Sequence record: NC_047885.1 | Direction: 5' to 3' (one strand) | Source of the DNA: Escherichia phage chee24 | DNA length: 64,000 bases | In this document: positions 1,798 through 55,070 of the stretch, in pieces | How positions within the stretch are numbered: position 1 is the stretch's first letter | How the letters are laid out: each line of letters opens with the position of its first letter | The notes under the pieces: generated by a model | What the model saw: only the letters and a program-made list of their open reading frames with translations | What the model was told of the DNA's origin: nothing | The model's database searches: none | Translations under genes and position numbers: made by a program

Positions 1798-1806
1798 ATA
1801 ATTTAT

Positions 1807-2688: not shown

Positions 2689-2764
2689 TGGACGACCGCA
2701 TGAGATTTGAACTCACATAAAAAGGATTTGCAATCCTTCGCCTAAGCCATTCAGCCAACGGTCG
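2689..2764 (-). tRNA. tRNA-Cys (anticodon GCA), CCA encoded
   Basis: Acceptor CGACCGT/GCGGTCG, anticodon stem AAGGA/TCCTT with loop TTGCAAA, T-arm GTGAG-TTCAAAT-CTCAT. Confidence 0.65.
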
Positions 2765-2942
2765 ATTTATCTTGTTTTTCGAGATCTTCAAATTCTAAAT
2801 CATTGAAGTTCCCTAGAGTACGGGAGTAGAACCCGTCTCCTACGTCATAGCCTGATTTACCACAATCACACATTTTAAACTCTCTATAACGAGTGAAAAT
2901 ATGTTCAGAACCACAACACTTAAATTTAACTAACATTTTCAT
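2751..2942 (-). CDS. small Cys-rich protein (63 aa), possible zinc ribbon
   Basis: ORF with CC..H and CDC motifs. Confidence 0.45.
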   Translation of the reverse strand: MKMLVKFKCCGSEHIFTRYREFKMCDCGKSGYDVGDGFYSRTLGNFNDLEFEDLEKQDKSTVG

Positions 2943-3181
2943 TTAACACGCTCCGGTAAATCTTCGAGTTTATATTGGGTAGCCACATTAGCAGCATCTA
3001 GTAACAAACCCATATGTTTAAGAATCCTGGTGATAGCCTCGCCTTCTGCTTCTTCTACAAAGCAACGTAGATTAACGAAGTCAATACCACCATCCATACC
3101 AGAGAAAATGTTTAGTAAGCGAAACATTACCAGCTTACGTTCTTTCAATTCTTGTTCTGTCATGTTGCTTCTCCAGTTCAA
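2939..3181 (-). CDS. hypothetical protein (80 aa)
   Basis: ORF start overlaps the stop of the upstream ORF (coupled pair). Confidence 0.5.
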   Translation of the reverse strand: MNWRSNMTEQELKERKLVMFRLLNIFSGMDGGIDFVNLRCFVEEAEGEAITRILKHMGLLLDAANVATQYKLEDLPERVK

Positions 3182-3213
3182 TTTATGTAATTATTATATA
3201 GAACTTTTGGAAA

Positions 3214-3501
3214 CTAAGCAACTACATTTTTTAGGAATTTGATCCCTTTCTTTTTCTTCTTATATTTCCACGTTAATGGATTCTGTCGATTATGAACGCT
3301 TGAGATCTTTGTCTCGTCAAAGTTCTTCAATATCATGTAATCACAGGATAATTGTTCTAGTGGAATGTGATCACCGTCAAAAGCGTATACATAAGGCTGT
3401 TGACTAGCACGATAATGATAGACTTTGTTAATTCTACGTTTCAGCGACTTATCCGCGCAGTAAATAAAGAAGTTTTCAGGATGCATCAGCATCTCCTTCA
3501 A
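3214..3501 (-). CDS. hypothetical protein (95 aa)
   Basis: ORF in the minus-strand series. Confidence 0.5.
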   Translation of the reverse strand: MKEMLMHPENFFIYCADKSLKRRINKVYHYRASQQPYVYAFDGDHIPLEQLSCDYMILKNFDETKISSVHNRQNPLTWKYKKKKKGIKFLKNVVA

Positions 3502-3503
3502 TT

Positions 3504-3578
3504 TGGTGCACCCTGTTCGTATCGAACGAACCTCTCAAGCTCTTCAGGCAAGCGCTAATCCATCTCAGCTAAAGGTGC
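3504..3578 (-). tRNA. tRNA, probably Phe (anticodon GAA), CCA encoded
   Basis: Acceptor GCACCTT/AGGGTGC, D-arm GCTG..TAGC, perfect T-arm GTTCG-TTCGATA-CGAAC; anticodon stem has two U-U mismatches. Confidence 0.5.
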
Positions 3579-3584
3579 AAATTT

Positions 3585-3665
3585 TGGCAAACCCACTAGG
3601 ACTCGAACCTAGACCGTACGGTTTTGGAGACCGACATGCTGTCCAGTAACACTCTAGGAATGCAG
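3585..3665 (-). ncRNA. tRNA-like element with Trp-like anticodon loop (CTCCAAA) but no acceptor-stem pairing
   Basis: T-arm CTAGG-TTCGAGT-CCTAG and 3' CCA present; no complementary 5' strand found within tRNA distance. Confidence 0.3.
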
Positions 3666-3669
3666 AAAT

Positions 3670-3763
3670 TGGTACACCCACGGAGAATTGAACTCCGATT
3701 CTCAGATTGAACTCCGATTCTCAGATTGAAATCCTGATGTCCTAGCCATTAGACGATAGGTGT
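3670..3763 (-). tRNA. tRNA-Glu-like gene (anticodon UUC) with a 19-bp tandem duplication at the variable-loop position
   Basis: Removing one repeat copy gives a 75-nt cloverleaf (acceptor ACACCTA/TGGGTGT, D-arm GTCT-AATGGCTA-GGAC, anticodon stem TCAGG/TCTGA, T-arm CGGAG-TTCAATT-CTCCG); as encoded it is 94 nt. Confidence 0.45.
3687..3730. repeat. perfect 19-bp tandem duplication (ATTGAACTCCGATTCTCAG x2) plus a 6-bp partial third copy
   Basis: Exact copies at 3687-3705 and 3706-3724. Confidence 0.85.
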
Positions 3764-3771
3764 ATTAAATT

Positions 3772-3859
3772 TGGTGGGCGTTAATGGAGTCGAACCACTC
3801 GAGTCGCAATGACCAGGGATTTACAATCCCCTCCGCTACCACTTACGGAATAAACGCCC
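3772..3859 (-). tRNA. tRNA-Tyr (anticodon GUA), long variable arm, CCA encoded
   Basis: Acceptor GGGCGTT/AACGCCC, anticodon stem GGGGA/TCCCT with loop TTGTAAA, 88-nt length with extra arm. Confidence 0.6.
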
Positions 3860-3987
3860 ATATTTAGAAGCATTCAAATACTTGTTTAAACACTTTTAAA
3901 TATGTTTCCGAATTAGATAACTATTATACCAAGTTTTAAGGCACTGAGCAAGTCAAATTTTAAAGAACTTGCTCAGTGCTGTATTAG

Positions 3988-4263
3988 TTAGTCGAACTTA
4001 GGAGTGATAGTTAAGGAGAACGGAAGTTCGAAAACTTCTTCGCCCTCATTACTAACGGTAACTACACGACCTTTAAGTTCAGACATTAAAATATCAATAT
4101 CAGCTTTTGCATCTGGAGCCATGCCAGCTTCAATACATTTAGCTTTAACTTCCGGTAAAAGCTCTACGTTATAGAGATAGAGCCACTCAATCTCACCTTC
4201 CCAGTCTTCCCAGGATTTGCAGATTGCACTTTCAATACCAGTTGCTACAACACGATTTTGCAT
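3988..4263 (-). CDS. hypothetical protein (91 aa)
   Basis: ORF with promoter-like TTGCCT-18-TATAAT (minus sense) at about 4290-4345 upstream. Confidence 0.55.
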   Translation of the reverse strand: MQNRVVATGIESAICKSWEDWEGEIEWLYLYNVELLPEVKAKCIEAGMAPDAKADIDILMSELKGRVVTVSNEGEEVFELPFSLTITPKFD

Positions 4264-4353
4264 TAATTAACTCCTTCATCAATTTATATAACTATTATAC
4301 CAGAAATTTAAAGTAAAAGGCAAGTACATTTTTAAAAATTCTGTTTGGAGGAG

Positions 4354-4560
4354 CTAAACTCCAGATTTTTCGGCCAAGTCTAGACTAATAAGAGTTATAG
4401 CCATAATTGCTGCACCGTGTTCTTTTTCTCCGGTGTTTTTAGCAGAGTCTATAATATCCTTAATCTGTTCGTAATAACTTTTTACTTCTTGTTCAATGCC
4501 TGCCTCGGCTATCATGCCTTTAGCCATGAATCGTTGCATGGTAATTTCAGGATTAGCCAT
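4354..4560 (-). CDS. hypothetical protein (68 aa)
   Basis: ORF; start overlaps the stop of the 4553-4720 ORF. Confidence 0.5.
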   Translation of the reverse strand: MANPEITMQRFMAKGMIAEAGIEQEVKSYYEQIKDIIDSAKNTGEKEHGAAIMAITLISLDLAEKSGV

Positions 4561-4720
4561 GTTGTTTCTCCAGTTTCATTTTTAATAGTTTACAGATGAA
4601 ATCAACGTCTTCATCTGTGCCTAAGTCTCTATCCTCAAGGGTCGCCTTGAAGTTTTTCGTCAATTCCATGAGGATGACTTCCCTAGAACGACGTGTTGGC
4701 GGAGGTGGATGTCTATACAT
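4553..4720 (-). CDS. small hypothetical protein (55 aa)
   Basis: Unlisted ORF below the track cutoff, coupled to the downstream gene. Confidence 0.35.
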   Translation of the reverse strand: MYRHPPPPTRRSREVILMELTKNFKATLEDRDLGTDEDVDFICKLLKMKLEKQHG

Positions 4721-4735
4721 CTTATTTCCTTAATT

Positions 4736-4812
4736 TGGTAGGGGTGGTGGGATTCGAACCCACAAAACCTGAATTTTAAGTCCAGTACCTATGCCAATTC
4801 GATTACACCCCC
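4736..4812 (-). tRNA. tRNA with anticodon UAA (Leu-like, but short variable loop)
   Basis: Acceptor GGGGGTG/CACCCCT, T-arm GTGGG-TTCGAAT-CCCAC, anticodon stem CTGGA/TTCAG with loop CTTAAAA. Confidence 0.5.
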
Positions 4813-5107
4813 ATGTAATCAGTTTATTAGTTGATACATATTATAGCCTAAAGAAAACCCTACTACTAATCCTACGAACCAACCAATATAATAATCTTTT
4901 AATTTCACGGGTGTCAACCTCGTTCAATATCTAGAGAAATACCACAGGTAGGATTAATGCCTGTGCCTTTGCACGTCGGACAAACCCAGATATTACAGAA
5001 TGTATCCCCTGCTTCTGCATCAGAACTTTTCCAACTCCTAGACAGTTAGGACAGGCACATTCTTCTAGCTCTTGCTTGAGTTCTTGAAACTTAGACATAT
5101 AGTTTCC

Positions 5108-5296
5108 TTATTCAATTACTTTTGAGGCTTCAAGGGAGTCGATATAGTGTACGTTTTCTACCATGATCATATAATCTGCCACTTTATCCATAGCCTGAGC
5201 TTCAGAGGTAGCCCTGGCTAACCTATATCCTTTTTTATATTCATCCGGGTATTCCCTATCTGGAATAAACACAACACAAACTAGGTATAGTTCCAC
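5108..5296 (-). CDS. hypothetical protein (62 aa)
   Basis: ORF in the minus-strand series. Confidence 0.4.
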   Translation of the reverse strand: MELYLVCVVFIPDREYPDEYKKGYRLARATSEAQAMDKVADYMIMVENVHYIDSLEASKVIE

Positions 5297-5317
5297 TTGT
5301 AACCTCTCTAATCAAGA

Positions 5318-5395
5318 TGGTGGCTCCCCGAGGATTCGAACCTACGTACCTTCCGGTTATGAGCCGGATGCTCATACCATATGAGCTTGAGAACC
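5318..5395 (-). tRNA. tRNA-Met or Ile2 (anticodon CAU), CCA encoded
   Basis: Acceptor GGTTCTC/GGGAGCC, anticodon stem TCCGG/CCGGA with loop CTCATAA; T-stem imperfect. Confidence 0.55.
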
Positions 5396-5401
5396 AGAAT
5401 T

Positions 5402-5490
5402 TGGCGGAAGAAGTGGGAATCGAACCCACAAGGCTATATTTCAAACCGACAGATTAGCAATCTGCTGCAATACCGTTATGCTATTCTTCC
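5402..5490 (-). tRNA. tRNA-Ser (anticodon GCU), long variable arm, CCA encoded
   Basis: Acceptor GGAAGAA/TTCTTCC, anticodon stem GCAGA/TCTGT with loop TTGCTAA, T-arm GTGGG-TTCGATT-CCCAC, 89 nt. Confidence 0.6.
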
Positions 5491-5505
5491 GAATTTATAA
5501 GATAT

Positions 5506-5534
5506 ATTATATTAGAAATTTAGCTTCATAGCAA
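5506..5534 (-). promoter_or_regulatory. sigma70-like early promoter (minus sense TTGCTA-17-TATAAT) upstream of tRNA-Ser
   Basis: Plus-strand ATTATA 5506-5511 and TAGCAA 5529-5534; same conserved promoter family. Confidence 0.55.
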
Positions 5535-6030
5535 GAAAATTTTTCAAGTTTTCGGTAGACATCTCATCCACATCTACAGGAGAAACAAATCCATTTAATT
5601 GTCTAGCAAATTTTTCACCAGCAGGATCATTATCCCCAACAGCTACCAATTTAAAAGGTAGTAATTTCAATTGCTTTAACAACGCTTTTCCTGGAGAAGA
5701 ACCCAACATTGCCAGGGCTGGATAACCAGCGTTATGTAATGCTACGGCCTTAAATACAGATTCCGCAACCAATACTACTTTTTCATCCCCATTGAGAGTT
5801 TCCAGCCCCCATACACACTGTGTAGTAGAATAAGTAAAATACTTAGCTTCAAAAGGAGATTTACCATGACCTTTTGGAGCAGAAGGATTATAAGTCTGAT
5901 AGCCTCTCAACATCCCAGAGAAGTCATACAATGGGACTGTTAGCCATCCTTCCGGACTTAACCAGCAATGATATTTATCTGTATCAAACCCTCTAGATAA
6001 GAGATGTTCTGTTAGTTCATCAACAGTCAT
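5512..6030 (-). CDS. TOPRIM-domain protein, primase-like paralog lacking a zinc finger (172 aa)
   Basis: VVLVAESVFKAVAL and VAVGDNDPAG motifs (Glu plus DxD) align with the TOPRIM region of the primase at 37630-38520. Confidence 0.55.
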   Translation of the reverse strand: MTVDELTEHLLSRGFDTDKYHCWLSPEGWLTVPLYDFSGMLRGYQTYNPSAPKGHGKSPFEAKYFTYSTTQCVWGLETLNGDEKVVLVAESVFKAVALHNAGYPALAMLGSSPGKALLKQLKLLPFKLVAVGDNDPAGEKFARQLNGFVSPVDVDEMSTENLKNFLAMKLNF

Positions 6031-6058
6031 ATTAGATTCCTCTCAAATTTATAAATAT

Positions 6059-6087
6059 ATTATACAGAGGATTTAGCATTCAAGCAA
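6059..6087 (-). promoter_or_regulatory. sigma70-like early promoter (minus sense TTGCTT-17-TATAAT) for 5512-6030
   Basis: Plus-strand ATTATA 6059-6064 and AAGCAA 6082-6087. Confidence 0.55.
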
Positions 6088-6165
6088 TTGAATTTTTTAA
6101 CTTTTTAGAGGAAAATCACAGGATGCTTACGGGTAGCAGGTAAGTGGTCAGGACCGAAATTTGTG

Positions 6166-6195
6166 ACCCCACTAAAAATCTGGGGTCAATTTTTA
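6166..6195 (+). terminator. rho-independent terminator-like hairpin at the 5' edge of the plus-strand cassette
   Basis: Stem GACCCCA/TGGGGTC with 9-nt loop, followed by AATTTTTA. Confidence 0.5.
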
Positions 6196-6203
6196 AAGAC
6201 CCC

Positions 6204-6232
6204 TTGACATTTTTGCCGGGGTAGTGTAAAGT
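6204..6232 (+). promoter_or_regulatory. sigma70-like promoter (TTGACA-17-TAAAGT) for the plus-strand cassette
   Basis: Consensus -35 at 6204-6209, 17-bp spacer, -10 TAAAGT 6227-6232, AGGAGG RBS at 6280. Confidence 0.6.
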
Positions 6233-6295
6233 ATATGTTATGGATGAGTGATCAAAGAGACACACATTTTCTATATACTAGGAGGTGTCAAAAAA

Positions 6296-7275
6296 TGACA
6301 GAAGAAGTAGCTAAGAGTCCTGAAACCGTCGCTAGCGTAGCAGCAGAACTGCATCGTCACGAGGAATCAGATAAGAAAAAGTGGGAGAAAGTCAAAGCCT
6401 ACGAAGAAGAACATCGTGAACACGATGATAAAGATGAAGAAGATGACGATGATGAACATTGTCATAAATATGGAAAACATAAAATGCAAGAACCAGTAAA
6501 CGTATTTACTAATGGCTTCCCTGGCATGGGTGCATTCCCAGCTAACGCAAGTGCTTTCGGTGGAGAAGGTATGGGTCTATTCGGAGCTATCCTAATCGGT
6601 GCTCTATTAACAGGCGGATTTGGTGGTTTTGGTGGTTTTGGCCGTGGTGCTGGCGTTGCCGCTGAAGGGACTGCTGTGGACGCGATCCTTTCTAACCAAG
6701 ATACTGCAAGTATTCTAGCTGCAATCAATACTACTCGTACAGAAGCTAACCAGGGCACTGGGGCTGTTCTAAGCGCAGTAAACGGTGTGGGAGCTGCTCA
6801 AGCTGCTAGCACTCAGCAAGTTCTGACTACTATCTACGGTACAGGTGCTAATCTGTCAAACCAGATCTGTGCTGAAACTCGTAACGTTATTCAGGGTCAG
6901 TTCGATCTTTCTCGTCAGATGGATCAATCTTTCGCTGCTAACCAGATCGCACGTGCTCAAGATAAGTTTGACTCTGCTCAGATTGCTTTCCAGCAGTCTA
7001 TTCAGACCAATAACCAGTTTGCCGCTGTTCAGGCTCAGATGTGTGCTAACCAGAATGCTATAGAGCGTCAGCTTGCTGAATGTTGCTGTGAACTTCAGAC
7101 TGCGATCGCTGGTGTAACTACTGCGCGTATCCAGGACGAACTGAATGAATGCCGTCTGCGTGAAGCAATCGCTCAAGGTAGTGGTGCTAACGGTCAGGTA
7201 ATTAACCAAATCGCTGTAAGTCTTGGTGCTATCACTCAGACTCTGGCTGGTCTGCAGGCTAAACTGCCGGCTTAA
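6296..7275 (+). CDS. hypothetical protein (326 aa): acidic N-terminus, Gly-rich hydrophobic segment, Gln/Ala-rich C-terminal half
   Basis: Track ORF 6235-7275 trimmed to the ATG at 6296 behind AGGAGG; segment GMGLFGAILIGALLTGGFGGFGGFG looks like a glycine-zipper membrane helix; codons look more GC-rich than neighbours. Confidence 0.6.
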
Positions 7276-7296
7276 AATTAAGGGGAGGAGCCCATT

Positions 7297-7713
7297 ATGA
7301 GTAAATATGGTTTTGTAAACAACGGATTTAATCAACAAATGGGCTCCCAGCAGCCCGTTCCGGGTCTGGATAATCCTTACCTACAACAGTTGCAACAGCG
7401 TTTAGCAGAAGCGCAACAGATGCAGCAACAACTCCAGCAAAACCCTGGAAGTGTGAGTCCTATGCAAATGATGCAGCAAATGAGCGGGCAGTCGCAAATG
7501 CCTCAACAAATGCAGCAACAGGTGCCTCAGCAGCAAGTTCAGCAACAAACCCAACAACCGCAGGTTTCTGCGGAAGGACAGGCAGTACTAGCTCTTTTCG
7601 AAGATTTCGCAAAGACAGAGGATGGGAAACAGCTTGTATCACTTATGGGTAAGTTTAATAGCTTCTGCCAAAGCCAGGTTGCAAAAGCTCAAAATGGTGA
7701 TAATAACTCCTAA
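7297..7713 (+). CDS. Gln-rich low-complexity protein (138 aa)
   Basis: ATG behind GGGGAGGAG RBS; long QQ(M/L)QQ tracts. Confidence 0.55.
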   Translation: MSKYGFVNNGFNQQMGSQQPVPGLDNPYLQQLQQRLAEAQQMQQQLQQNPGSVSPMQMMQQMSGQSQMPQQMQQQVPQQQVQQQTQQPQVSAEGQAVLALFEDFAKTEDGKQLVSLMGKFNSFCQSQVAKAQNGDNNS

Positions 7714-7722
7714 GGAGGAATT

Positions 7723-7917
7723 ATGTGTTGCAGAAAATCTGTTTCGTGCTGCCCAATGCCTGTAGCACGTTGTTGCTCTCCAGCAATGTTTACACAAATA
7801 CCGGCGTTCAATCCCTTTGCCTTTAAGCCTACTCTTATCCTGCCCCCTAGAGTAGATTTTCAGTCAAGATTGGCCTCCCGTATGGGTGGTTGCTGTAACA
7901 AGAGTATATGGTTCTAA
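7723..7917 (+). CDS. small Cys-rich protein (64 aa) with four Cys-Cys doublets
   Basis: ATG behind AAGGAGG RBS; sequence MCCRKSVSCC..RCCS..GGCCNK. Confidence 0.5.
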   Translation: MCCRKSVSCCPMPVARCCSPAMFTQIPAFNPFAFKPTLILPPRVDFQSRLASRMGGCCNKSIWF

Positions 7918-7933
7918 AGAACCAATAATAAAA

Positions 7934-7966
7934 AGCCCCTAGTCGAAAGACTTAGGGGCTTTTCTC
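7934..7966 (+). terminator. rho-independent terminator ending the plus-strand cassette
   Basis: Stem AGCCCCTAGTC / GACTTAGGGGCT with GAAA loop, followed by TTTTCTC. Confidence 0.7.
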
Positions 7967-7975
7967 TTATCTTAA

Positions 7976-8014
7976 ATACAGAAAAGCCCTGCGCTCTCCA
8001 GGGAACGCAGGGCT
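7976..8014 (-). terminator. rho-independent terminator downstream of the SPFH gene
   Basis: Stem AGCCCTGCG/CGCAGGGCT; minus-sense T-tract from plus AGAAAA. Confidence 0.6.
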
Positions 8015-8038
8015 TACTTCGAATATTACGTGTGGGTA

Positions 8039-8986
8039 TTACTTGTTACGCATATCCATAATCATCTGGCCATCATAACCAGTGCCAACCACAGTCTGCG
8101 GTACACCACCTTGATACTTCTGAGCACGAATCATTTCAACTTCTAGTTGCTTCCAGCGAATCATCTCAGGAGTAATGGTACGTTGCAGAGCAGCGTTAGC
8201 TTCAGCTTCTTTCTTAGCTGCATACAGTTTAGCATCTGCATCACGTTCGTTTGCAATAGCTTGGTTGTTACGAGCTTCACGATCTGCTTCTGCTTGTTTA
8301 ACCTTCTGCTGTGCTTCTTGTTCAACGCGAGCTAATTCAGCTTTCGCAGCATTAACTTGTTCTTCGCGAACTTTGGTATTCTGTACCTGTTCCATAATTA
8401 CCGGTGGCAATGTAATATCCTGAAGGAACACTTGCTTAACTGTGTAACCATAGGGGCGTGCATACTCTTCAACTTCCTGTTGAATTGCAGTTTGCAATTG
8501 TGCTTGAATTTTAGCATCAAACAAATCTTGTGCTTTAGGTACAGACTTACCAAACTCACGAATAGTAGACAGTAATTTTTCAGTTACATACTTATCTAGA
8601 GCCTGATCTTGAGTACCCGCATTAATACGGTTGATCGGTGCCTTAGAACCATCAAACTGCAACATAACAGTCAGGTCAACAGTGGATTTAAACTTATCCT
8701 GGCTAGGAACCTGAAGTTTATCTAATTTTACAGCAATATCTTTTGTACTAAAAGTATCGAAAGATGCAAATGGGTTTACAAGATGGAAACCAGGTAATAC
8801 TGGGTTAGGATCTACTTTACCTAGAAATGTTTGGGTTTTAACCGTACCATCAGAAACAATAGTATATGAATTAAAAGCTAGGATTAAACCTGCTAAACCA
8901 ACTACAGCACCAATACTCCAACGTTTAATAGTGCGAATTACTTTTTGCTCAGAAGTCAGTTCTTTCATATTTTTAGTATTAGACAT
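8039..8986 (-). CDS. SPFH/band-7 (prohibitin/HflC-like) membrane protein (315 aa)
   Basis: N-terminal membrane anchor (WSIGAVVGLAGLILAF), SPFH-like core, long Ala/Glu/Gln-rich coiled-coil C-terminus. Confidence 0.65.
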   Translation of the reverse strand: MSNTKNMKELTSEQKVIRTIKRWSIGAVVGLAGLILAFNSYTIVSDGTVKTQTFLGKVDPNPVLPGFHLVNPFASFDTFSTKDIAVKLDKLQVPSQDKFKSTVDLTVMLQFDGSKAPINRINAGTQDQALDKYVTEKLLSTIREFGKSVPKAQDLFDAKIQAQLQTAIQQEVEEYARPYGYTVKQVFLQDITLPPVIMEQVQNTKVREEQVNAAKAELARVEQEAQQKVKQAEADREARNNQAIANERDADAKLYAAKKEAEANAALQRTITPEMIRWKQLEVEMIRAQKYQGGVPQTVVGTGYDGQMIMDMRNK

Positions 8987-9020
8987 ATATTTCCTTTGTT
9001 TTAGTTACAGTTAATAAAAT

Positions 9021-9095
9021 TGGCCGAGGTGACAGGATTCGAACCTGCATAAAGGAATTTAGAAGACTCCTGCCTCTCCCTTAGACTACACCCCG
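9021..9095 (-). tRNA. tRNA-Arg (anticodon UCU), CCA encoded
   Basis: Acceptor CGGGGTG/CACCTCG, anticodon stem GGAGT/ATTCC with loop CTTCTAA, T-arm GCAGG-TTCGAAT-CCTGT. Confidence 0.6.
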
Positions 9096-9597
9096 TTTAA
9101 GTATTTTTAAGAACTCTCGTAAAAACTCTTAAAAATACAGACGATACCGGGAGAGTCATAAGTCTCACTCATTAAGTATTTCAAGACAAAATACAGTAAC
9201 GTCTATTATTTTCCAGTTTAAGTCAAGGTGACTTAGTGGTTATGTCCTGCGGTATACTGAGGACTAGGTTAGGTTAGGGTCATGACTCCCCACCTTTTTG
9301 CTGCTACTCAACAGGAGTTATCGCGAATTACCTGTGCTATTGTGCACCATTAGTGGCATCTCTCATGCCAGCATTTCCCACTTTGTGGATAGTTTGAAAA
9401 ACTACTCCGATATGGAGAAAGAACTTCACTATCCTAGAATACCTTCTAAAGTTCTTCTTTAGCCTGGACATAGTTAAATCGTAATAAAACTATTCAGCAG
9501 ACTGGTTGGTTAGTCTGGAACCAACTACCGCGTGGTTTAGGCAGTGCGCAACTAACCTCGGAAGCTTTTACATTAAAAGCACCAGTTATCCAGTTCT

Positions 9598-9670
9598 TAC
9601 CGACCGTAGGATTCGAACCTACATCTTCCACCAGTTACGGCTTGATAATACCGTTTTATACTAGATCGGC
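9598..9670 (-). ncRNA. tRNA-like element (canonical acceptor stem and T-arm, irregular core)
   Basis: Acceptor GCCGATC/GGTCGGT and T-arm GTAGG-TTCGAAT-CCTAC; no standard anticodon arm identified. Confidence 0.3.
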
Positions 9671-9893
9671 AGTGTTACTACATAAGTGATTTCCACACCC
9701 CACTATCAGTAAATTAGAGAAGAGTTTAGGGGAGAGGTTTCAGACGCCCCATTTTACACGTTCTAGCCACTAACCGGGATTGCCGCCCCCTGTGTACTAG
9801 TTTTCCAACTAACCCACCGACTCTATTCAATGCGCTCCGGTTGGGATTCTGCACTCAGCGTAATCGGCTCGCTGTTCTCTAATTTATGAATAT

Positions 9894-48454: not shown

Positions 48455-48897
48455 TTAAAATTAAATTAACTCACCCAGATTGTATGCCTAAGATTGGCTC
48501 TGAAGATGCCGCAGGTATGGATCTGCGAGCATTCTTTGGTACTAACCCTGCCGCAGATTTACGTGCTATTGCACCAGGCAAATCCTTAATGATTGACACC
48601 GGTGTCGCGGTGGAAATTCCGCGAGGTTGGTTCGGTTTGGTAGTTCCGCGTAGTTCTTTAGGAAAGCGCCATTTGATGATTGCAAACACCGCAGGTGTGA
48701 TCGACTCAGATTATCGTGGGACTATTAAGATGAACCTGTTTAACTACGGTTCTGAAATTCAAACATTAGAAAATTTCGAGAGACTTTGTCAGCTAGTGGT
48801 ACTACCACACTATTCAACTCATCATTTTGAAATCGTTGACGAACTAGAGGAGACTGTACGTGGAGAAGGTGGATTTGGAAGCTCAGGAAGTAAATAA
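48451..48897 (+). CDS. dut: dUTP pyrophosphatase
   Basis: dUTPase motifs AAGMDLRA and IDSDYRGTI; ATGA coupling. Confidence 0.85.
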   Translation: MIKIKLTHPDCMPKIGSEDAAGMDLRAFFGTNPAADLRAIAPGKSLMIDTGVAVEIPRGWFGLVVPRSSLGKRHLMIANTAGVIDSDYRGTIKMNLFNYGSEIQTLENFERLCQLVVLPHYSTHHFEIVDELEETVRGEGGFGSSGSK

Positions 48898-48919
48898 GCA
48901 TGATTATTCAGATCCTAAA

Positions 48920-49129
48920 ATGATAGGTAACTTTGAACATTCAAAAAACTACCACATTGCGGTTGCTGAACCTAACCTAAATAATGTAGTTCTGAAAGTA
49001 GATAATGAAGGCAATGTAATCCATTGGAATGAAGAAGCTTTTGTTGAGCTATGTAGCAAGTCTCAAGATCCTACGCTTAGAGCTATGTTAGCAGTATTTA
49101 ACTTAGGTATTATTGCTGGAAACAGATAA
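48920..49129 (+). CDS. hypothetical protein (about 69 aa)
   Basis: ORF trimmed to the first ATG after the dut stop; weak RBS. Confidence 0.3.
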   Translation: MIGNFEHSKNYHIAVAEPNLNNVVLKVDNEGNVIHWNEEAFVELCSKSQDPTLRAMLAVFNLGIIAGNR

Positions 49130-49136
49130 TAGTAAA

Positions 49137-49168
49137 CCCCAGTGGATTGCCCACTGGGGTTTTCTTTT
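49137..49168. terminator. bidirectional rho-independent terminator at the early/late boundary
   Basis: Perfect 9-bp stem CCCCAGTGG/CCACTGGGG with T-runs on both strands; the minus-strand fibre stop codon lies in the T-tract. Confidence 0.7.
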
Positions 49169-51254
49169 ATTTATCAAGTAACTGTTTTACCAGTTTCTTA
49201 AGCTCATCAATCTCTTGTTGCTGCTTTTCAACAACTTCATTAAGCTCGTTAAAAGCATTAACTAGAAGAGCATTGACACCTGCATGGGAGACACCAAGCA
49301 TACTGTCTTCTTTTTGTGGCTCAATCTTGTACACTGCTTCTGGGAGGACAGATTGCACATCTTGAGCGATAACACCAGCCTCAGTACTGTAAACAGTATC
49401 TTTTTCCTCTTTAAGAGTATTTCTCTTATAATATGTATAGCCTACTAGAGATTTAACCTTATCACGAGCATTCTCAATTTCCTTAAGATCGGCTTTCATG
49501 CGAATATCAGAACTGCTTACCCAGTTACCACCAACAGCATTACCAGCGCTATCAAAACGAAACTCAGCCCCCCTGCAATACATGTTTAACTGTGCACCGC
49601 CGGCACTCCAGCCTACTACATCCATACCGGCTAACCAGTCTACACCCCACATTACGCTTTTAAATACAGAAGATGCAGCATCCAATCCAGTATGTTCTAC
49701 TAGCATTCCTGTAGGTCTTGATCTCCAATCAGTAAATGAACCACCACTAATAGCACCGCTTATTAGTGACCCAGATTCCCCACTTGCAGCCCCCTGTACT
49801 CTAATGGCACCTCGATTAGATATTGCATTAACTAATTGCCCCAAAGCTCCATGAGCTTGCTGCCATACACCCCAAGTACCACCCTCCATAATGCGTACGC
49901 TTACTGAACCTTTCCAAGTTCCTGTAAACATGGTGGCTCTTTGCATTCTATAGTTAGGATCTGGGTGTACTAGAGTCTCTAGGAAAAACCAAGCGTCTTC
50001 CAACCCGTTTATTTGTTGGTATGGTCGGGTACCAACAATATTTCCTCCAGTAGGTGGAACAGTAAACCTACAAGTTACAGCAAGAGTATCAAAGTTAAAT
50101 CCATTTGGGTACTTACCATCCATAGAGGACAAGAGGTCCCACTCTGTTAATTCTAGATTTTTTCTAGCTTGGCCAGCAGAATTAGCCCCCGTACCCCCAG
50201 CTGCAATAGCCAAAGGAACCCAAGTATCAGTATCCTCTTTCCAGCTACCCCATTCCCCATTAGGCCTAGCAGTGATTCTGAATCCAGACCCTGGAGCATA
50301 CATCATAGTCTCAGTAGCACTTTGTTTGAATCTGTCAATATCTAGGTTAGTTCTGGCACCATCCTTAGAATTTGCCCCCGTACCACCGTTAGAGAATTGA
50401 ACAGTAGTTTGATCATTGAACTGCTCCTGCCAGCCCCTCCAGTTGCCTGTACCGTCAAGAACGTTAACCCAAGAACTACCAGACGAGCCAACCGCATGTA
50501 GTACCCCGTATTGGGCAGCACCATTTATATCTATACCGTGGCAGTGAAAATTATATGTCCACCAACCTTCTTGCTTAGAAGGCCCGTTAACTATTAATCC
50601 ACCAGATGAATAATACCCGCTTTGACCTGCAACTGCAACATGGTTTAGAACATCTTCTCCATCAGCTATTTTTTCAGCTAAGGCACCAACCGGAACATTA
50701 AGATTTTTTCTTGCTACTTTTGGAGTAGTTCCTCCAGTACCACCAAATGCAACTTTTAGTGATTGTACTACTGTCGTAGAACTGTCAATTAGACCAAAAT
50801 CCCCATTATCATATATAAATAAAGAATACTTACCATTTGGAGAAGTAACAAAAGTTCCACTATCTTGCTGCCGTAGGCGTTCAACTTGTAAGGCTTTCTT
50901 AGCACCCTCTAACGTAGTAGCACCAGTACCACCCTGAGCAATAGTAATAGCTTTAGTCAGTGCATTTAATTCTGTAATATCGTTATTAGCACCTTTAGCA
51001 GCTTTAGTACCTAAAGTAGTATTAATACCACCTAATGCAGTATTAATATTACCAATTGATTCATTAATACTATTAATAGATGCATCAGTAGCAGCTTTAT
51101 CAGTAGTATATTTAGAAATTTGTAGATATTTGGAAGTTAGTACAACAGCACCAGCCTCTCCATCGACAGAGAAAACACCAGCAACTGCAGCGTCTCTGTT
51201 AACTACTACGTAAGGCGCCATTGCGCCAGATTTAGGCATTAAATTACGTGACAT
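49167..51254 (-). CDS. tail fibre protein with C-terminal intramolecular chaperone domain (LtfB-like, 695 aa)
   Basis: C-terminus SSSDIRMKADLKEIENARDKVKSLVGYTYYKR...GVIAQDV resembles the S74-type auto-cleaving chaperone domain. Confidence 0.7.
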   Translation of the reverse strand: MSRNLMPKSGAMAPYVVVNRDAAVAGVFSVDGEAGAVVLTSKYLQISKYTTDKAATDASINSINESIGNINTALGGINTTLGTKAAKGANNDITELNALTKAITIAQGGTGATTLEGAKKALQVERLRQQDSGTFVTSPNGKYSLFIYDNGDFGLIDSSTTVVQSLKVAFGGTGGTTPKVARKNLNVPVGALAEKIADGEDVLNHVAVAGQSGYYSSGGLIVNGPSKQEGWWTYNFHCHGIDINGAAQYGVLHAVGSSGSSWVNVLDGTGNWRGWQEQFNDQTTVQFSNGGTGANSKDGARTNLDIDRFKQSATETMMYAPGSGFRITARPNGEWGSWKEDTDTWVPLAIAAGGTGANSAGQARKNLELTEWDLLSSMDGKYPNGFNFDTLAVTCRFTVPPTGGNIVGTRPYQQINGLEDAWFFLETLVHPDPNYRMQRATMFTGTWKGSVSVRIMEGGTWGVWQQAHGALGQLVNAISNRGAIRVQGAASGESGSLISGAISGGSFTDWRSRPTGMLVEHTGLDAASSVFKSVMWGVDWLAGMDVVGWSAGGAQLNMYCRGAEFRFDSAGNAVGGNWVSSSDIRMKADLKEIENARDKVKSLVGYTYYKRNTLKEEKDTVYSTEAGVIAQDVQSVLPEAVYKIEPQKEDSMLGVSHAGVNALLVNAFNELNEVVEKQQQEIDELKKLVKQLLDK

Positions 51255-51297
51255 AGTATTTCCTTAGTAAATAGGGGAGAATTACTCCCCTATACTC

Positions 51298-54200
51298 TTA
51301 CTTATTTACCAGAGTAGCCACTAGAGCTTTTAACTCTGCCAGCTCTGCCTTAACGGATTTCAGTTCTTCCTGGGACTCTTCGAACTTTAGAGATAAGTAA
51401 CGAACTGCTAAAGCTGTATCAATAGCAATTGGGTTGATATCTAAGGCTAGAGTATCATCATTGTAATCAATGATCTTACCTTCTACGTTCTCAGTTTCTT
51501 CGTCACAGCAATGATGTTCTGAAGTTTCTATGATAGGAGAACCAGGAACCAGTTTTACGTACTCAGGGTCAATTTTATAAAGATCTTGAGCAATAACACC
51601 ACGGCGTACACGATTATACTTATCTAGTTTATAGATAAATGTGGTAGGTTTAAATTGCTTTATATTCTCATAGGAGGCTAACCCATCATCATAATTAATA
51701 TCTCTTTTGATATCTCTATCTGAAGAAGGGTTCATAGCAATGTCATAGTTACCTCCCCAAGGATCATTACCCCAAGTATATATGCTACCATTTGTTCTAA
51801 AGGTGAATGAACGGTGGAACTGGCCATCCCCATTTAACTTAAGAGCAGCATCAGGCCATGCAGCGTTACCATTAGAAATACATCCAAGCCCAACACGTAG
51901 TGAGTAGCCTCCTGTAGATACAGTACCACCAGAAACAAATGGAGACCAACCACCATCATTATTTATTACAGACTCTGCATGAAATGGGGCACCCATGTAA
52001 TTCCACTCTAAGCCCCAAGATCCTTGGATACACTGACCACGAAAACCTCTTTGAGCAGTTATGTGCCCACCGAAAGAGTTATAGAAGTTAAACTCTTTCC
52101 AATCTGTACCACTATTATTAACTCCAATACGGAGGCAGTCTAAGTCCGGTCCACTACCACGGATACCACCTACTTGCCAGTAACCGTTATACCAGTTACC
52201 CTGTAGTAAGTTAACCCAAGAACCAGCACCAGGGTCATTATTAGGAGTAGGTACAACCATACTAATTTCCCTGTTGCCCCCACCTGTTTGCTGTATATAG
52301 ATTTTTTCCCCGCCTTTGATCCATCCCTGGGCTGTAACATAACCACTTGCAAGGTAGTTAACTGCATGTACATTCTGTAGCCCAGTTAAATCACCATTTT
52401 CTACAAACTGTATATAACGGTTTGCACCATTTAAAGTATTGTTAATATGAAGGGTAATTTTAGCCAAGCCTGATTGCATCTCATGATAGATTCTACCCTG
52501 AGTAATAACATTTTGATCAGATTCCTTTAGCCTATTTAGGTTAAGGATACCACTATAGGGTATACTTTCGGGGTTAGATAGATCTACCCCAGTAAATCTA
52601 GTAGTATTATGATACCCCAATCCAAAGTTATCACGTGCAGCAACTTTATCAGTAGCTCCCGTACCTCCAGAGCCTATAGGCAACGCAGCTACCGTTTCTT
52701 CACCCCTCTTCCAGACACCCCATGTTCCATCATTAGTTATTCTAAACTCATGAATACCAGCAGGGCTCTGGAGGGAATTGAAAGCAGCATCAGCGGGACT
52801 ATCATTACAGAAAACTCCACCAACTTCTAAAGCTTTCTTAGCGGCACCAACTGTGGTAGCTCCAGTACCGCCTTTAGCTAGACTTAAGACACCTTGAGTA
52901 TCCCCATTTAAATCCGGCTTATTAACAGTACCATAAAGAATATTAGTATGAACAGTAGGGTTTTCACCATCTAAACCACCATCATTGATTGCGGCTACAA
53001 ATACTGAGGCACTACCATACGCTGGACAGATAAATGAGTTAGTATCTGCTACTCTGGAATAGAAACCTGCAGCATATGCAGGCAAGCCGTCAAATCCAGT
53101 GTCATTGCGATAATACCCAGAACCAAAGGCTCTCATAGCCTTGAAAAATGATACTATATCAGGTTCATTTAATGCAATACCAGTACCACCTAAACCAAAA
53201 GCACCTCTTAATAAAACCTCGCCATCAGTACCATTCCAAACGTTTTTAGTTACTACATTACCTAGTGCAAGATTTCCATTCTCATCAGGTATAATAGCAC
53301 CATTAACCATCGCTACGTAAGGAAGTTTAATAGCACCAGTATCATCAGCAGGACCAACCCCATTCACAGTAGTAATATAAGGGATTTGTTCTTTGATAGC
53401 ACCAGCATCTTCTTCACCTTTAGTTGGTGCACGGAATGCCTGTCCTTGCATCATATCTGGTAGACGGAAGGTTGTGGAACCATCACCGGTGGAGAAGTAG
53501 AGTGTTGCACCAGCCTGCCATTGTTCTTCCGTAACAGAGGGGATTAAGCCAGCCTCAATAGCTTCCCAAGTATCTGGATAGTCTACACGAAGAACTTCAC
53601 GGCCATCAGCAGGTAGAACACCAGGGTAACCAACACCTGAATCCTTGTTATAAGGGAACCAAGTAACTTCACCTAGCCATAGAGATGGGTTACCACCAGG
53701 AAGGGTGATCTGTACGTTACCTGCATCGTCTGCATGAACGTTGTTAATAGAAACTAGCTTTTGCTCTATTTCTACTAACTCTAGAACAGGAGCTTCAGCA
53801 GTACCAGCAACTTTATACCAACCGTACTTTGAATCAGTTTGATTCCAGACTAGAACCTTTTCGTCTAGCACACGGTTTACAACATCAGCATCAGCTTCTG
53901 CTTTAGTCTTATAAACTTTGATAAAACCAGAAATATCTACTTTATCAAGTTTACTATCAACAATCTGAGTTGCACGATCTGCCTCAGCTTTAGCACGATC
54001 TGCCTCAGTAGTAGCATCGATAGCTTTATCACCGGCTTCAGTAGCAGAACCAGCAGCATTAGTTTCAGAAATCTTAGCGTTTAGTTCTGATTGCTTTGCA
54101 GCAGCAGCATGTTCGCCAGCAGTGGTAGCAGCAGCATCAGCTCCATCTTTAGCTGTTTCAGCACCAGTCTTAGCAGCTTCTGCAGCTGTTTGAGCTTGTT

Positions 54201-54648
54201 GCGCAGCTGTTTTAGCTTGTTCTGCAAGTCTACGACTAGTTTCAGCATTTTGAGCCGCTAATTCAGCAGAATCTCTAAATCCTTTAGACTCTTCCGCCGA
54301 TGTAGCAGATGCTTCAGCACTCTTTTGAGATAAACCAGCTTGTTTTTTAGCTTCGGCCGCAGATGCCGCTGATTGGGTTGCAGATGTTTCAGAAGAAGTA
54401 GCATAGATACTAGCCATGTTTTCTGAATCTTTTGCCTTATTCTCAGAATCTTTAGCAGCAATTTCAGAACCTTTTGCTGCTGCCGCAGAAGCAGCGGTGG
54501 CTTCTACAGCAGCAGTTAATTCACCAGCAGTAATAGAACTAATAGAACTTCCTAAAACTACTGTATATTTAGGATACTTACTAGCAGTAGTTGTAGTGTC
54601 ATCTATGTTCAGGATCTGCTGTACAATAATTTTAGTTTTAAGTGCCAT
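51298..54648 (-). CDS. L-shaped tail fibre protein (pb1/LtfA-like, 1116 aa) with C-terminal chaperone domain
   Basis: Ala-rich coiled-coil N-terminus, Gly/Thr-rich shaft, C-terminal SDRDIKRDI...RGVIAQDLYKIDPEYV. Confidence 0.75.
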   Translation of the reverse strand: MALKTKIIVQQILNIDDTTTTASKYPKYTVVLGSSISSITAGELTAAVEATAASAAAAKGSEIAAKDSENKAKDSENMASIYATSSETSATQSAASAAEAKKQAGLSQKSAEASATSAEESKGFRDSAELAAQNAETSRRLAEQAKTAAQQAQTAAEAAKTGAETAKDGADAAATTAGEHAAAAKQSELNAKISETNAAGSATEAGDKAIDATTEADRAKAEADRATQIVDSKLDKVDISGFIKVYKTKAEADADVVNRVLDEKVLVWNQTDSKYGWYKVAGTAEAPVLELVEIEQKLVSINNVHADDAGNVQITLPGGNPSLWLGEVTWFPYNKDSGVGYPGVLPADGREVLRVDYPDTWEAIEAGLIPSVTEEQWQAGATLYFSTGDGSTTFRLPDMMQGQAFRAPTKGEEDAGAIKEQIPYITTVNGVGPADDTGAIKLPYVAMVNGAIIPDENGNLALGNVVTKNVWNGTDGEVLLRGAFGLGGTGIALNEPDIVSFFKAMRAFGSGYYRNDTGFDGLPAYAAGFYSRVADTNSFICPAYGSASVFVAAINDGGLDGENPTVHTNILYGTVNKPDLNGDTQGVLSLAKGGTGATTVGAAKKALEVGGVFCNDSPADAAFNSLQSPAGIHEFRITNDGTWGVWKRGEETVAALPIGSGGTGATDKVAARDNFGLGYHNTTRFTGVDLSNPESIPYSGILNLNRLKESDQNVITQGRIYHEMQSGLAKITLHINNTLNGANRYIQFVENGDLTGLQNVHAVNYLASGYVTAQGWIKGGEKIYIQQTGGGNREISMVVPTPNNDPGAGSWVNLLQGNWYNGYWQVGGIRGSGPDLDCLRIGVNNSGTDWKEFNFYNSFGGHITAQRGFRGQCIQGSWGLEWNYMGAPFHAESVINNDGGWSPFVSGGTVSTGGYSLRVGLGCISNGNAAWPDAALKLNGDGQFHRSFTFRTNGSIYTWGNDPWGGNYDIAMNPSSDRDIKRDINYDDGLASYENIKQFKPTTFIYKLDKYNRVRRGVIAQDLYKIDPEYVKLVPGSPIIETSEHHCCDEETENVEGKIIDYNDDTLALDINPIAIDTALAVRYLSLKFEESQEELKSVKAELAELKALVATLVNK

Positions 54649-55070
54649 TATTGAGTTACCCCGTCACTTACATAAACCTTTCCTTCCATAATACGGAAAG
54701 AACTGACTTCTGAACCAATAACATCGCGAGTCATTAGAATATCGTAATAACCTGCGAAACGTTGTCTTGGGTTATATTTATCACGCTCTTTGGATGCCTT
54801 AATACCGATATTATTAACATCTCCAACACTAAGGCTAATAGCAGCAGCTCCTTGAGCCGCATCGATTATACGAGTTTTAAAAGTAGCTAAAGTTTCCGCA
54901 TCCTCGTCAAGACTTGCTTTAATCGTTCCACGGAGTGAATAACCTGTTAGATTAACAGGTATTTCAGAGGGAGGGTATACACTATCATCAACATCCATAA
55001 ACTGCATGATAAGACCATAAGGCACTTTCTCATCAACAACAATATCAATTACTCTATTTTCTGTACTCAT
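54648..55070 (-). CDS. p132: tail collar protein (T5 p132-like, 140 aa)
   Basis: Length and position match remembered T5 p132; TAATG coupling. Confidence 0.55.

What the first reader, a model, noticed from the sequence alone, without database searches (positions are those of the whole stretch)
49167..54648. Two consecutive tail-fibre genes, each ending in its own self-cleaving chaperone domain
Both proteins carry C-terminal S74-like chaperone signatures with the conserved Ser-Asp-Arg cleavage region. Two independently folding fibre proteins point to a branched or dual-specificity fibre, the main host-range determinant. A small hairpin (about 51266-51284) separates the two genes.
Basis: partly seen in the sequence, partly recalled or inferred. 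Interest (0 to 1): 0.6.

Follow-up and report, generated by a model that had tools for sequence, protein, structure and literature searches.

The report
Known two-gene T5-like tail fibre
These are the ltfA and ltfB genes of a published T5-like phage of the chee24/SPC35 type, which together encode the two-protein, probably branched side tail fibre already described for phage DT57C, so the finding is correct but ordinary.

Summary
Two adjacent minus-strand ORFs sit at exactly the stated coordinates: 51298-54648 (1116 aa) and 49167-51254 (695 aa). Each ends in a Peptidase_S74 self-cleaving chaperone domain (39.3 and 50.9 bits; cut-off 22) with an S-D-x-x-x-K motif at S976 and S582. A hairpin separates them, but at 51271-51293, not 51266-51284.

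- The window matches the published chee24-group T5-like phages: 2 mismatches to pork27 over 17.5 kb.
- Gene order is ltfC-ltfA-ltfB, as in phage DT57C.
- LtfA residues 1-442 are 89% identical to DT57C LtfA (PDB 8hqz). This stretch holds the collar-binding end, the coiled coil and a Kuravirus fibre-like region.
- LtfB residues 1-56 carry the phiEco32 gp15-type adaptor module.
- Golomidova et al. 2016 described this branched, dual-receptor fibre with two S74 ends. They named SPC35, 91% identical to this locus at nucleotide level, as a carrier.

The two receptor-binding regions differ from DT57C's and their receptors are unknown. LtfA's distal part is shared with fibres of ~50-kb siphoviruses. 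LtfB's contains pyocin-knob-like domains.

Verdict: already known, low interest.

The parts
54648..55070 (-). ltfC, the collar protein that anchors the side fibres (140 aa). Its stop codon overlaps the ltfA start codon by 1 nt.
   Evidence: Pfam PF23926 LtfC, E 3.1e-14. It has the same position and the same 1-nt overlap as DT57C ltfC.
51298..54648 (-). ltfA, L-shaped tail fibre protein A (1116 aa plus stop).
   Evidence: ORF. PHROG 5481 matches over the full length. Residues 1-442 are 89% identical to DT57C LtfA, PDB 8hqz_d.
53959..54648 (-). LtfA residues 1-230: N-terminal strands that insert into the LtfC ring, followed by an alanine-rich trimeric coiled coil. This is the part shared with T5 pb1.
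   Evidence: Near-identity to the modelled part of DT57C LtfA in 8hqz. A 1396-position tail-fibre PHROG (24369) matches residues 3-229, E 1.3e-52. The cryo-EM description is in PMC10713586.
53320..53955 (-). LtfA residues 232-443: region similar to Kuravirus gp14 and SU10 gp12, the proposed docking site for LtfB.
   Evidence: PDB 7z47_D, which I take to be the SU10 long-fibre protein, E 3e-41 over residues 232-443. 38% identity to the YW01 tail fibre, E 2e-44. Its role was proposed in PMC4728585.
51724..53319 (-). LtfA residues 444-975: distal shaft plus presumed receptor-binding region. It has GGTGA...AR.NL motifs at residues 593 and 661 and a confidently predicted beta-rich domain at about residues 702-960.
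   Evidence: It is not homologous to the DT57C LtfA distal part. Most of the 674-aa query (residues 443-1116; about 65-80% covered) is 46-50% identical to fibres on ~50-kb contigs, including phages egaa, FritzSarasin and Samwise. AF2 block pLDDT is mostly 65-94 across this domain. No solved structure matches specifically.
51301..51723 (-). LtfA residues 976-1116: C-terminal self-cleaving chaperone domain (Peptidase_S74). Cleavage is predicted just before S976.
51271..51293 (-). Intergenic RNA hairpin between ltfA and ltfB: 9-bp stem, 5-nt loop, weak U tract. Followed by an AAGGA ribosome-binding site at 51261-51265.
   Evidence: Identical in SPC35, smaug and AKM_ECS. DT57C has a different stem-loop with a UUCG loop at the same place.
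49167..51254 (-). ltfB, L-shaped tail fibre protein B (695 aa plus stop).
   Evidence: ORF. PHROG 12321 matches 1-695 of 695. 75% identical to a protein named 'L-shaped tail fiber protein B' in phage EscoHU1.
51087..51254 (-). LtfB residues 1-56: adaptor module of the phiEco32 gp15 type, presumed to dock LtfB onto LtfA.
   Evidence: The LtfB N-terminal ~175 aa are 60% identical to DT57C LtfB, and the first 50 residues are nearly identical. 66-70% identity to the second fibre protein of Kuraviruses, including phiEco32, over residues 1-56. The first 60 residues (the query used) are found in 234 phage records.
49512..51086 (-). LtfB residues 57-581: helical stretch, four GGTGA...AR.NL motifs (residues 108, 171, 290, 353), small beta modules, and the distal presumed receptor-binding part.
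   Evidence: for the motifs. AF2 model with mean pLDDT 72. Best structural hit is the R1 pyocin fibre knob region 6cl5, E 2.4e-4, followed by T4 gp34. Distant relatives are named 'pyocin knob domain-containing S74 family peptidase'. Beyond about residue 175 there is no meaningful similarity to DT57C LtfB apart from a repeat of the GGTGA module.
49170..49511 (-). LtfB residues 582-695: C-terminal self-cleaving chaperone domain. Cleavage is predicted just before S582.
   Evidence: PF13884, 50.9 bits. SDIRMK motif. phmmer hit to the S16 gp37 C-terminus 6f45, E 8e-12. The profile also hits MyRF ICA 7dc3 and GA-1 neck appendage 3gud.
49134..49162 (.). Bidirectional terminator-like hairpin (12-13 bp stem) closing the late fibre operon and the convergent plus-strand early genes.
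   Evidence: Terminators are annotated at the equivalent place in phage AKM_ECS.

Best explanation
This is the ltfC-ltfA-ltfB module for the lateral (L-shaped) tail fibre of a T5-like phage of the chee24/SPC35 type.

Proposed mechanism:
1. LtfA trimerises. Its N-terminal strands are locked into the dodecameric LtfC collar at the tail tip, and its coiled coil projects outward.
2. The Kuravirus gp14-like region (residues 232-443) provides the site onto which the N-terminal adaptor of the LtfB trimer docks.
3. LtfA continues beyond that site to its own distal receptor-binding region, so the fibre carries two tips, one from LtfA and one from LtfB.
4. Each polypeptide ends in an intramolecular chaperone of the S74 type. 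This domain drives trimer folding from the C-terminus and then removes itself by Ser/Lys autoproteolysis. Cleavage is predicted before S976 in LtfA and before S582 in LtfB, leaving mature chains of 975 and 581 residues.
5. By analogy with DT57C and T5, the two tips bind surface polysaccharides, most probably O-antigens. That lets the phage cross the O-antigen layer before the central receptor-binding protein engages its outer-membrane receptor.
6. The genes are co-transcribed on the late strand. ltfC and ltfA are translationally coupled by a 1-nt overlap, and ltfB has its own ribosome-binding site behind a conserved hairpin.

Shown here: gene order, domain content, motif conservation, and homology of the attachment modules.
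Inferred from DT57C, T5 and SU10 work: branching, autocleavage, and polysaccharide receptors.
For: Identity of the locus:
- The locus matches the chee24-group phages at about 100%; over the 17.5-kb pork27 locus there are 2 mismatches.
- It is 91% identical at nucleotide level to SPC35.
- Synteny with DT57C is exact: dut, ltfB, ltfA, ltfC, pb4, pb3.

Attachment modules:
- LtfC Pfam hit.
- LtfA residues 1-442 are 89% identical to DT57C LtfA, PDB 8hqz.
- LtfA residues 232-443 match SU10 and YW01 fibres.
- The LtfB N-terminus matches DT57C LtfB and Kuravirus second fibres including phiEco32.

Chaperone domains:
- Two PF13884 domains above threshold with conserved S-D-x-x-x-K.
- Structural and profile matches to solved chaperone domains 7dc3, 3gw6, 6f45 and 3gud.

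Literature:
- PMC4728585 describes the two-gene fibre, the S74 ends and the predicted cleavage sites.
- It reports ltfA and ltfB mutant phenotypes with distinct O-antigen specificities, and lists SPC35 as a carrier.
- PMC10713586 shows LtfA locked in the LtfC ring and no LtfB density on the tail core.
Against: - No experiment exists for this phage or for the SPC35-type fibre proteins. Their distal regions are unrelated in sequence to those of DT57C, so specificity, and even whether both tips are active, is extrapolated.
- The LtfA-LtfB junction has never been resolved structurally.
- In SU10 the homologous pair is described as proximal and distal parts of one elbowed fibre, not as a branch.
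- Monomeric AF2 models gave no specific fold match for the LtfA distal domain.
- The hairpin's function is untested.
Confidence: 0.85

Rival explanations
1. Serial rather than branched fibre. LtfA would be the proximal half and LtfB the distal half of a single elbowed fibre. Only the LtfB tip would bind a receptor, and the LtfA C-terminal part would be structural.
For: The homologous Kuravirus SU10 proteins are described as 'long tail fiber proximal' (gp12) and 'distal' (gp13) proteins of one fibre with an elbow joint. The junction has not been resolved in any T5-like phage.
Against: LtfA continues for more than 500 residues past the presumed docking region. It ends in its own chaperone domain, the hallmark of a free C-terminal fibre tip. 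In DT57C and DT571/2, swapping the LtfA C-terminal part switches host specificity while LtfB confers a separate specificity. The LtfA distal module also occurs as the tip of single-gene lateral fibres of ~50-kb siphoviruses.
Confidence: 0.08
2. Two independent fibre sets. LtfB would attach by itself elsewhere on the tail tip, not through LtfA.
For: Weak extra densities near the tail tip at low contour were tentatively assigned to LtfB in DT57C.
Against: No robust LtfB density is associated with the virion core. The authors interpret the weak density as folded-back LtfB tips. LtfB lacks any similarity to T5 tail proteins, yet the rest of the tail is T5-like. An ltfA mutant loses growth on both hosts. 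The LtfB adaptor co-occurs with the gp14-like region of the neighbouring gene in both the T5-like phages and the Kuravirus examined.
Confidence: 0.05
3. Artefact: the second ORF is a frameshifted continuation or a decayed duplicate of the first.
For: None beyond adjacency and the shared C-terminal domain type.
Against: LtfA has a complete chaperone domain, a terminal helix and a stop codon. LtfB starts at a conserved Met1 behind a ribosome-binding site. Both are full-length members of separate PHROG families. The same two-ORF layout is annotated in DT57C, SPC35, AKM_ECS and smaug, and dozens of records carry the whole locus. The two proteins share only short motif-level similarity, and the longest nucleotide repeat between the genes is 58 nt at 76% identity.
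Confidence: 0.01

Closest known systems
LtfA/LtfB branched lateral tail fibre of T5-like phages DT57C and DT571/2 (Golomidova et al. 2016, PMC4728585; Ayala et al. 2023, PMC10713586, PDB 8hqz)
   Same: Gene order ltfC-ltfA-ltfB and the 1-nt ltfC/ltfA overlap. LtfA residues 1-442 are 89% identical, including the collar-binding end, the coiled coil and the gp14-like region. LtfB has the same N-terminal adaptor. Both proteins end in S74 chaperone domains. A hairpin lies between the genes.
   Different: The distal receptor-binding regions of both proteins are different sequences. LtfB is 695 aa here and 788 aa in DT57C. The hairpin sequence differs. There are no long ltfA/ltfB nucleotide repeats like those that cause fusion deletions in DT57C.
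SPC35-type fibre locus (Salmonella phage SPC35, smaug, SSP1, NR01, Th1 'tail fibers A/B', EscoHU1 'L-shaped tail fiber protein A/B')
   Same: The whole 5.5-kb locus is 90-94% identical at nucleotide level. The architecture and hairpin are the same. SPC35 is listed in PMC4728585 as a two-ltf-gene phage.
   Different: Only point differences. No functional study of this allele type was found in the searched literature.
Phage T5 L-shaped tail fibre pb1 (single gene, 1396 aa)
   Same: Homologous N-terminal attachment and coiled-coil part (a 1396-position tail-fibre PHROG, 24369, E 1.3e-52). A C-terminal S74-type chaperone that is cleaved off (stated). LtfC collar.
   Different: T5 has one fibre gene and one tip. 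It lacks the gp14-like docking region and LtfB. I expected a solved T5 pb1 tip in the PDB copy, but no such entry appeared among the sequence or profile hits.
Kuravirus long-fibre gene pair (phiEco32 gp14/gp15; SU10 gp12/gp13; YW01)
   Same: Adjacent gene pair. The first protein shares the region matching LtfA 232-443 (38% identity). The second shares the 45-56 aa N-terminal adaptor (66-70% identity).
   Different: These are podoviruses, and the fibre attaches to the adaptor ring through a different N-terminus. SU10 authors describe the pair as proximal and distal segments.
Intramolecular chaperone auto-processing domains (K1F endosialidase 3gw6, GA-1 gp12 3gud, S16 gp37 6f45, MyRF ICA 7dc3)
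   Same: Pfam PF13884 membership, the S-D-x-x-x-K motif, and a C-terminal helix.
   Different: The LtfA copy has a poorly predicted insertion of about 25 aa (residues ~1040-1060, containing HHCC) that is not conserved in relatives.

Membership tests
Peptidase_S74 / intramolecular chaperone domain | Profile match above the curated threshold, at the extreme C-terminus of a fibre or spike protein | tested here: met
   PF13884 scores 39.3 bits (LtfA 976-1032) and 50.9 bits (LtfB 582-642) against a cut-off of 22, with full profile coverage.
Peptidase_S74 / intramolecular chaperone domain | Ser and Lys spaced S-D-x-x-x-K at the start of the domain. Their role as catalytic dyad comes from my knowledge of the K1F endosialidase and T5 pb1 work, not from a tool result. 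| tested here: met
   SDRDIK at residue 976 and SDIRMK at residue 582. Ser, Asp and Lys are present in 108, 111 and 110 of 114 LtfA relatives.
Peptidase_S74 / intramolecular chaperone domain | Fold like solved chaperone domains | tested here: met
Peptidase_S74 / intramolecular chaperone domain | Actual autoproteolytic release after trimer folding | not testable with these tools
   Needs virion mass spectrometry or SDS-PAGE of wild type against S976A and S582A mutants.
DT57C-type two-protein (LtfA/LtfB) lateral tail fibre | Two large fibre genes directly downstream of ltfC on the late strand | tested here: met
DT57C-type two-protein (LtfA/LtfB) lateral tail fibre | LtfA N-terminus homologous to DT57C LtfA and T5 pb1 (collar attachment) | tested here: met
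   89% identity over residues 1-442 to 8hqz_d. A 1396-position tail-fibre PHROG, 24369, matches at E 1.3e-52.
DT57C-type two-protein (LtfA/LtfB) lateral tail fibre | phiEco32 gp14-like region in LtfA and gp15-like N-terminus in LtfB | tested here: met
DT57C-type two-protein (LtfA/LtfB) lateral tail fibre | LtfB physically held on the virion through LtfA (branching) | not testable with these tools
   Inferred from DT57C genetics and cryo-EM.
DT57C-type two-protein (LtfA/LtfB) lateral tail fibre | Each protein recognises a different receptor | not testable with these tools
   The distal regions differ from each other and from DT57C. Receptors are unknown.
T5 pb1-type single L-shaped fibre | One fibre gene carrying the T5-type receptor-binding tip | tested here: not met
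   Two genes are present. I expected a solved T5 pb1 tip in the PDB copy, but no such entry was among the sequence or profile hits.

The most novel reading that the evidence does not exclude
The most novel reading left open has three parts.

1. Receptor-binding modules: those of this chee24/SPC35 allele type are functionally uncharacterised. The confidently predicted LtfA distal domain (about residues 702-960) has no specific match among solved structures. It is shared with lateral fibres of ~50-kb siphoviruses.
2. A new tip type: this domain could therefore be a new receptor-binding fold or specificity, one that helps explain the broad E. coli, Shigella and Salmonella range reported for this group.
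3. The hairpin: the strictly conserved ltfA-ltfB hairpin could tune the LtfA:LtfB ratio.
Probability: 0.2. Interest if true: 0.35.

Novelty: already known. Interest (0 to 1): 0.12.

Why it matters
Lateral tail fibres decide which O-antigen types a T5-like phage can penetrate, so they matter for host-range engineering and for phage biocontrol; the chee24 group was isolated for that purpose. The two-protein, two-tip design with two self-cleaving chaperones has been in the literature since 2016, and it is common. The LtfB adaptor occurs in 234 phage records. This locus adds another allele, not a new principle. What is still unknown is which receptors the SPC35/chee24-type tips bind and how LtfB sits on LtfA.

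Tried and rejected
- NCBIfam gave no hits for either protein.
- PDB sequence search with the LtfB N-terminal 70 aa found nothing meaningful. I took PDB 7z47 to be the SU10 virion entry. No SU10 chain matched the LtfB N-terminus, so the junction could not be examined structurally.
- Profile searches of the PDB with both family alignments found no solved relative of either receptor-binding region.
- I looked for long direct repeats between ltfA and ltfB, which form a recombination hot spot in DT57C. Only short GGTGA-motif repeats turned up, the longest 58 nt at 76% identity.
- The promoter scan was no better than shuffled sequence: 27 hits against 23.3 expected. It was not used.
- The frameshift or pseudogene idea was rejected.
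Full report
**What is in the sequence**

The region holds two large minus-strand ORFs at exactly the coordinates given: 51298-54648 (1116 aa) and 49167-51254 (695 aa). Upstream on the same strand lie a 140-aa ORF (54648-55070), the pb4 straight-fibre gene and the pb3 gene. The plus-strand ORFs inside the region are short and have no support.

Pfam gives one full-length Peptidase_S74 (PF13884) match at the C-terminus of each protein:

| Protein | Residues | E-value | Bits (cut-off 22) |
|---|---|---|---|
| First (LtfA) | 976-1032 | 8.2e-10 | 39.3 |
| Second (LtfB) | 582-642 | 1.9e-13 | 50.9 |

The 140-aa ORF is an LtfC collar protein (PF23926). The next gene has the four pb4 domains.

Each S74 domain opens with S-D-x-x-x-K: SDRDIK at residue 976 and SDIRMK at residue 582. 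In an alignment of 114 relatives of the first protein, the Ser, Asp and Lys are present in 108, 111 and 110 sequences.

**The hairpin**

The 43-nt spacer reads TAA-GAGU-AUAGGGGAG-UAAUU-CUCCCCUAU-UUACU-AAGGA-AAUACU-AUG.
- It forms a 9-bp stem with a 5-nt loop at 51271-51293.
- The folded 52-nt segment has a free energy of -17.2 kcal/mol and z -2.56; 5 of 200 shuffles fold as well.
- The hairpin is identical in SPC35, smaug and AKM_ECS, although those loci are only 84-92% identical overall.
- DT57C has a different stem-loop with a UUCG loop at the same position.
- The U tract is short, so it is not a canonical terminator. Its role (attenuation, or stabilising or processing the mRNA) is only inferred.
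- A much stronger bidirectional terminator-like hairpin at 49134-49162 closes the operon.

**Where the window comes from**

- The 5.5-kb locus is about 100% identical to the T5-like phages pork27, pork29, saus47N, saus111K and poul124, and 90.9% identical to SPC35.
- Over 17.5 kb the window differs from pork27 at two positions, 52602 and 54896.
- Both window alleles are the chee24 alleles in Table 3 of Sváb et al. 2018 (PMC5816814). The window is therefore most probably phage chee24 itself.
- In that record family the two genes are annotated simply as 'tail fibers protein'.

**Comparison with the characterised system**

DT57C has the same gene order: dut, ltfB, ltfA, ltfC, pb4, pb3. It also has the same 1-nt ltfC/ltfA overlap.

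The first protein (LtfA):
- Residues 1-442 are 89% identical to DT57C LtfA, which is PDB 8hqz chain d.
- That stretch covers the N-terminal strands that cryo-EM shows locked into the LtfC dodecamer, and the trimeric coiled coil (PMC10713586).
- It also covers residues 232-443, which match the long-fibre protein of Kuravirus SU10 (7z47_D, E 3e-41) and of phage YW01 (38% identity).

The second protein (LtfB):
- Its N-terminal ~175 aa are 60% identical to DT57C LtfB, and the first 50 residues are nearly identical.
- Residues 1-56 are 66-70% identical to the N-terminus of the second fibre gene of Kuraviruses, including phiEco32.

These are the two similarities on which Golomidova et al. 2016 based their branched model, in which LtfB is held on the virion through LtfA (PMC4728585). 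That paper also:
- notes that LtfA and LtfB both end in pfam13884 autocleavable chaperone domains with predictable cleavage sites;
- shows by mutants and recombinants that the two proteins recognise different O-antigens;
- lists SPC35 among phages with two ltf genes.

The LtfB adaptor occurs in 234 phage records. About 144 are at 80% identity or more, and those listed are T5-like. About 90 are at 60-80%, and those listed are almost all Kuravirus-type. Later papers treat LtfA/LtfB as usual for T5-like phages.

**What differs from DT57C**

Beyond residue 442 of LtfA and about residue 175 of LtfB, the sequences are unrelated to DT57C except for the chaperone domains.

LtfA distal part:
- Most of the 674-aa query (residues 443-1116; about 65-80% covered) is 46-50% identical to fibre proteins on ~50-kb contigs.
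- These include phages egaa, FritzSarasin and Samwise. This looks like a horizontally exchanged tip module.
- The AF2 monomer model has mean pLDDT 74.6. A beta-rich domain at about LtfA residues 702-960 has block pLDDT mostly 65-94, and a long terminal helix follows.

LtfB:
- The model has mean pLDDT 72.3.
- It shows a helix at residues 46-87 and small beta modules separated by four GGTGA...AR.NL motifs.
- A beta-rich distal part, the chaperone domain and a terminal helix follow.

Structure searches:
- For LtfB the best matches are the R1 pyocin fibre knob region 6cl5 (E 2.4e-4) and T4 gp34. This agrees with database names such as 'pyocin knob domain-containing S74 family peptidase' for distant relatives.
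- Profile searches of the PDB found no solved relative of either receptor-binding region.
- These were monomer models of trimeric fibres, so the absence of a match is weak evidence.

**Mechanism**

The best-supported account is as follows.
1. LtfA trimers are anchored in the LtfC collar.
2. LtfB trimers dock by their N-terminal adaptor on the gp14-like region of LtfA.
3. Both chains fold from their C-terminal chaperone domains. These then cut themselves off, before S976 and S582.
4. The two free tips bind surface polysaccharides, so the phage can cross the O-antigen layer before the central receptor-binding protein acts.

Gene content, module homology and motif conservation are shown here. Branching, cleavage and receptor class are inferred from DT57C, T5 and related work.

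The main rival is a serial proximal-distal fibre, as SU10's authors describe the homologous pair. It is disfavoured because LtfA carries more than 500 further residues and its own chaperone-capped tip. That tip module also serves as the end of single-gene fibres elsewhere.

The frameshift idea is refuted. LtfA is complete, and LtfB starts at a conserved Met1 behind a ribosome-binding site. Each protein is a full-length member of its own PHROG.

**Verdict**

However, this is a textbook instance of a published arrangement in a published genome. Novelty: already known. Interest: low. The remaining open points are the receptors of the SPC35/chee24-type tips, the structure of the LtfA-LtfB junction, and the role of the conserved hairpin.

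Noticed in passing
window 54896 (ltfC codon 59) and 52602 (ltfA codon 683); locus L001: The window differs from pork27 at only these two bases in 17.5 kb and carries the chee24 alleles. In pork27 the first change is a premature stop (E59*) in the gene that is in fact ltfC, the collar protein needed for fibre attachment in DT57C. The original paper lists it only as 'phage protein'. pork27 may therefore be a natural mutant lacking side fibres.
   Followed up: partly
window 51724-53319 (LtfA residues 444-975): Most of the distal part of LtfA is 46-50% identical to lateral fibre proteins on ~50-kb siphovirus contigs (egaa, FritzSarasin, Samwise). This suggests exchange of the tip module between T5-like and small siphoviruses.
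   Followed up: partly
L003 4501-4536 (Escherichia phage YW01): The second fibre gene of Kuravirus YW01 is annotated as starting at 4537. The conserved adaptor sequence MSRELMPKSG... starts at 4501, so the annotated start is probably 36 nt too far downstream.
   Followed up: partly
hit H29 (PQ773600.1): A 41-kb record named 'Corynebacterium phage CPphiVTCCBPA_418' carries 93% of this enterobacterial T5-like fibre locus at 84% identity, with a collar protein gene. The host assignment or the assembly looks doubtful.
   Followed up: no
window 468-9671, minus strand: A cluster of 15 tRNA genes typical of T5-like phages. It includes a 94-nt call for tRNA-Glu (3670-3763) and a 75-nt 'tRNA-Ser' with anticodon ACT (9597-9671). 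Both look atypical.
   Followed up: no
window 49134-49162: A terminator-like hairpin with a 12-13 bp stem and T runs on both sides. It lies in the 37-nt gap between the convergent ltfB gene and the plus-strand 89-aa ORF.
   Followed up: partly
window 48860-49129, plus strand: An 89-aa ORF overlapping the end of dut. It is a conserved phage protein of unknown function (PHROG 5592, E 1.3e-39).
   Followed up: no
LtfB residues 108, 171, 290, 353; LtfA residues 593, 661 (and a partial motif at 487): A recurrent motif, (A/S)xGGTGAxxxxxA(R/K)xNL, punctuates both shafts and separates small beta modules ending in WG.W. The same motif occurs in the SU10 fibre (7z47_D) and in DT57C LtfA.
   Followed up: partly
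LtfA residues ~1040-1060 (window ~51469-51531): The LtfA chaperone domain has an acidic insertion containing His-His-Cys-Cys. It is predicted with low confidence and is not conserved in relatives. Its significance is unknown.
   Followed up: no
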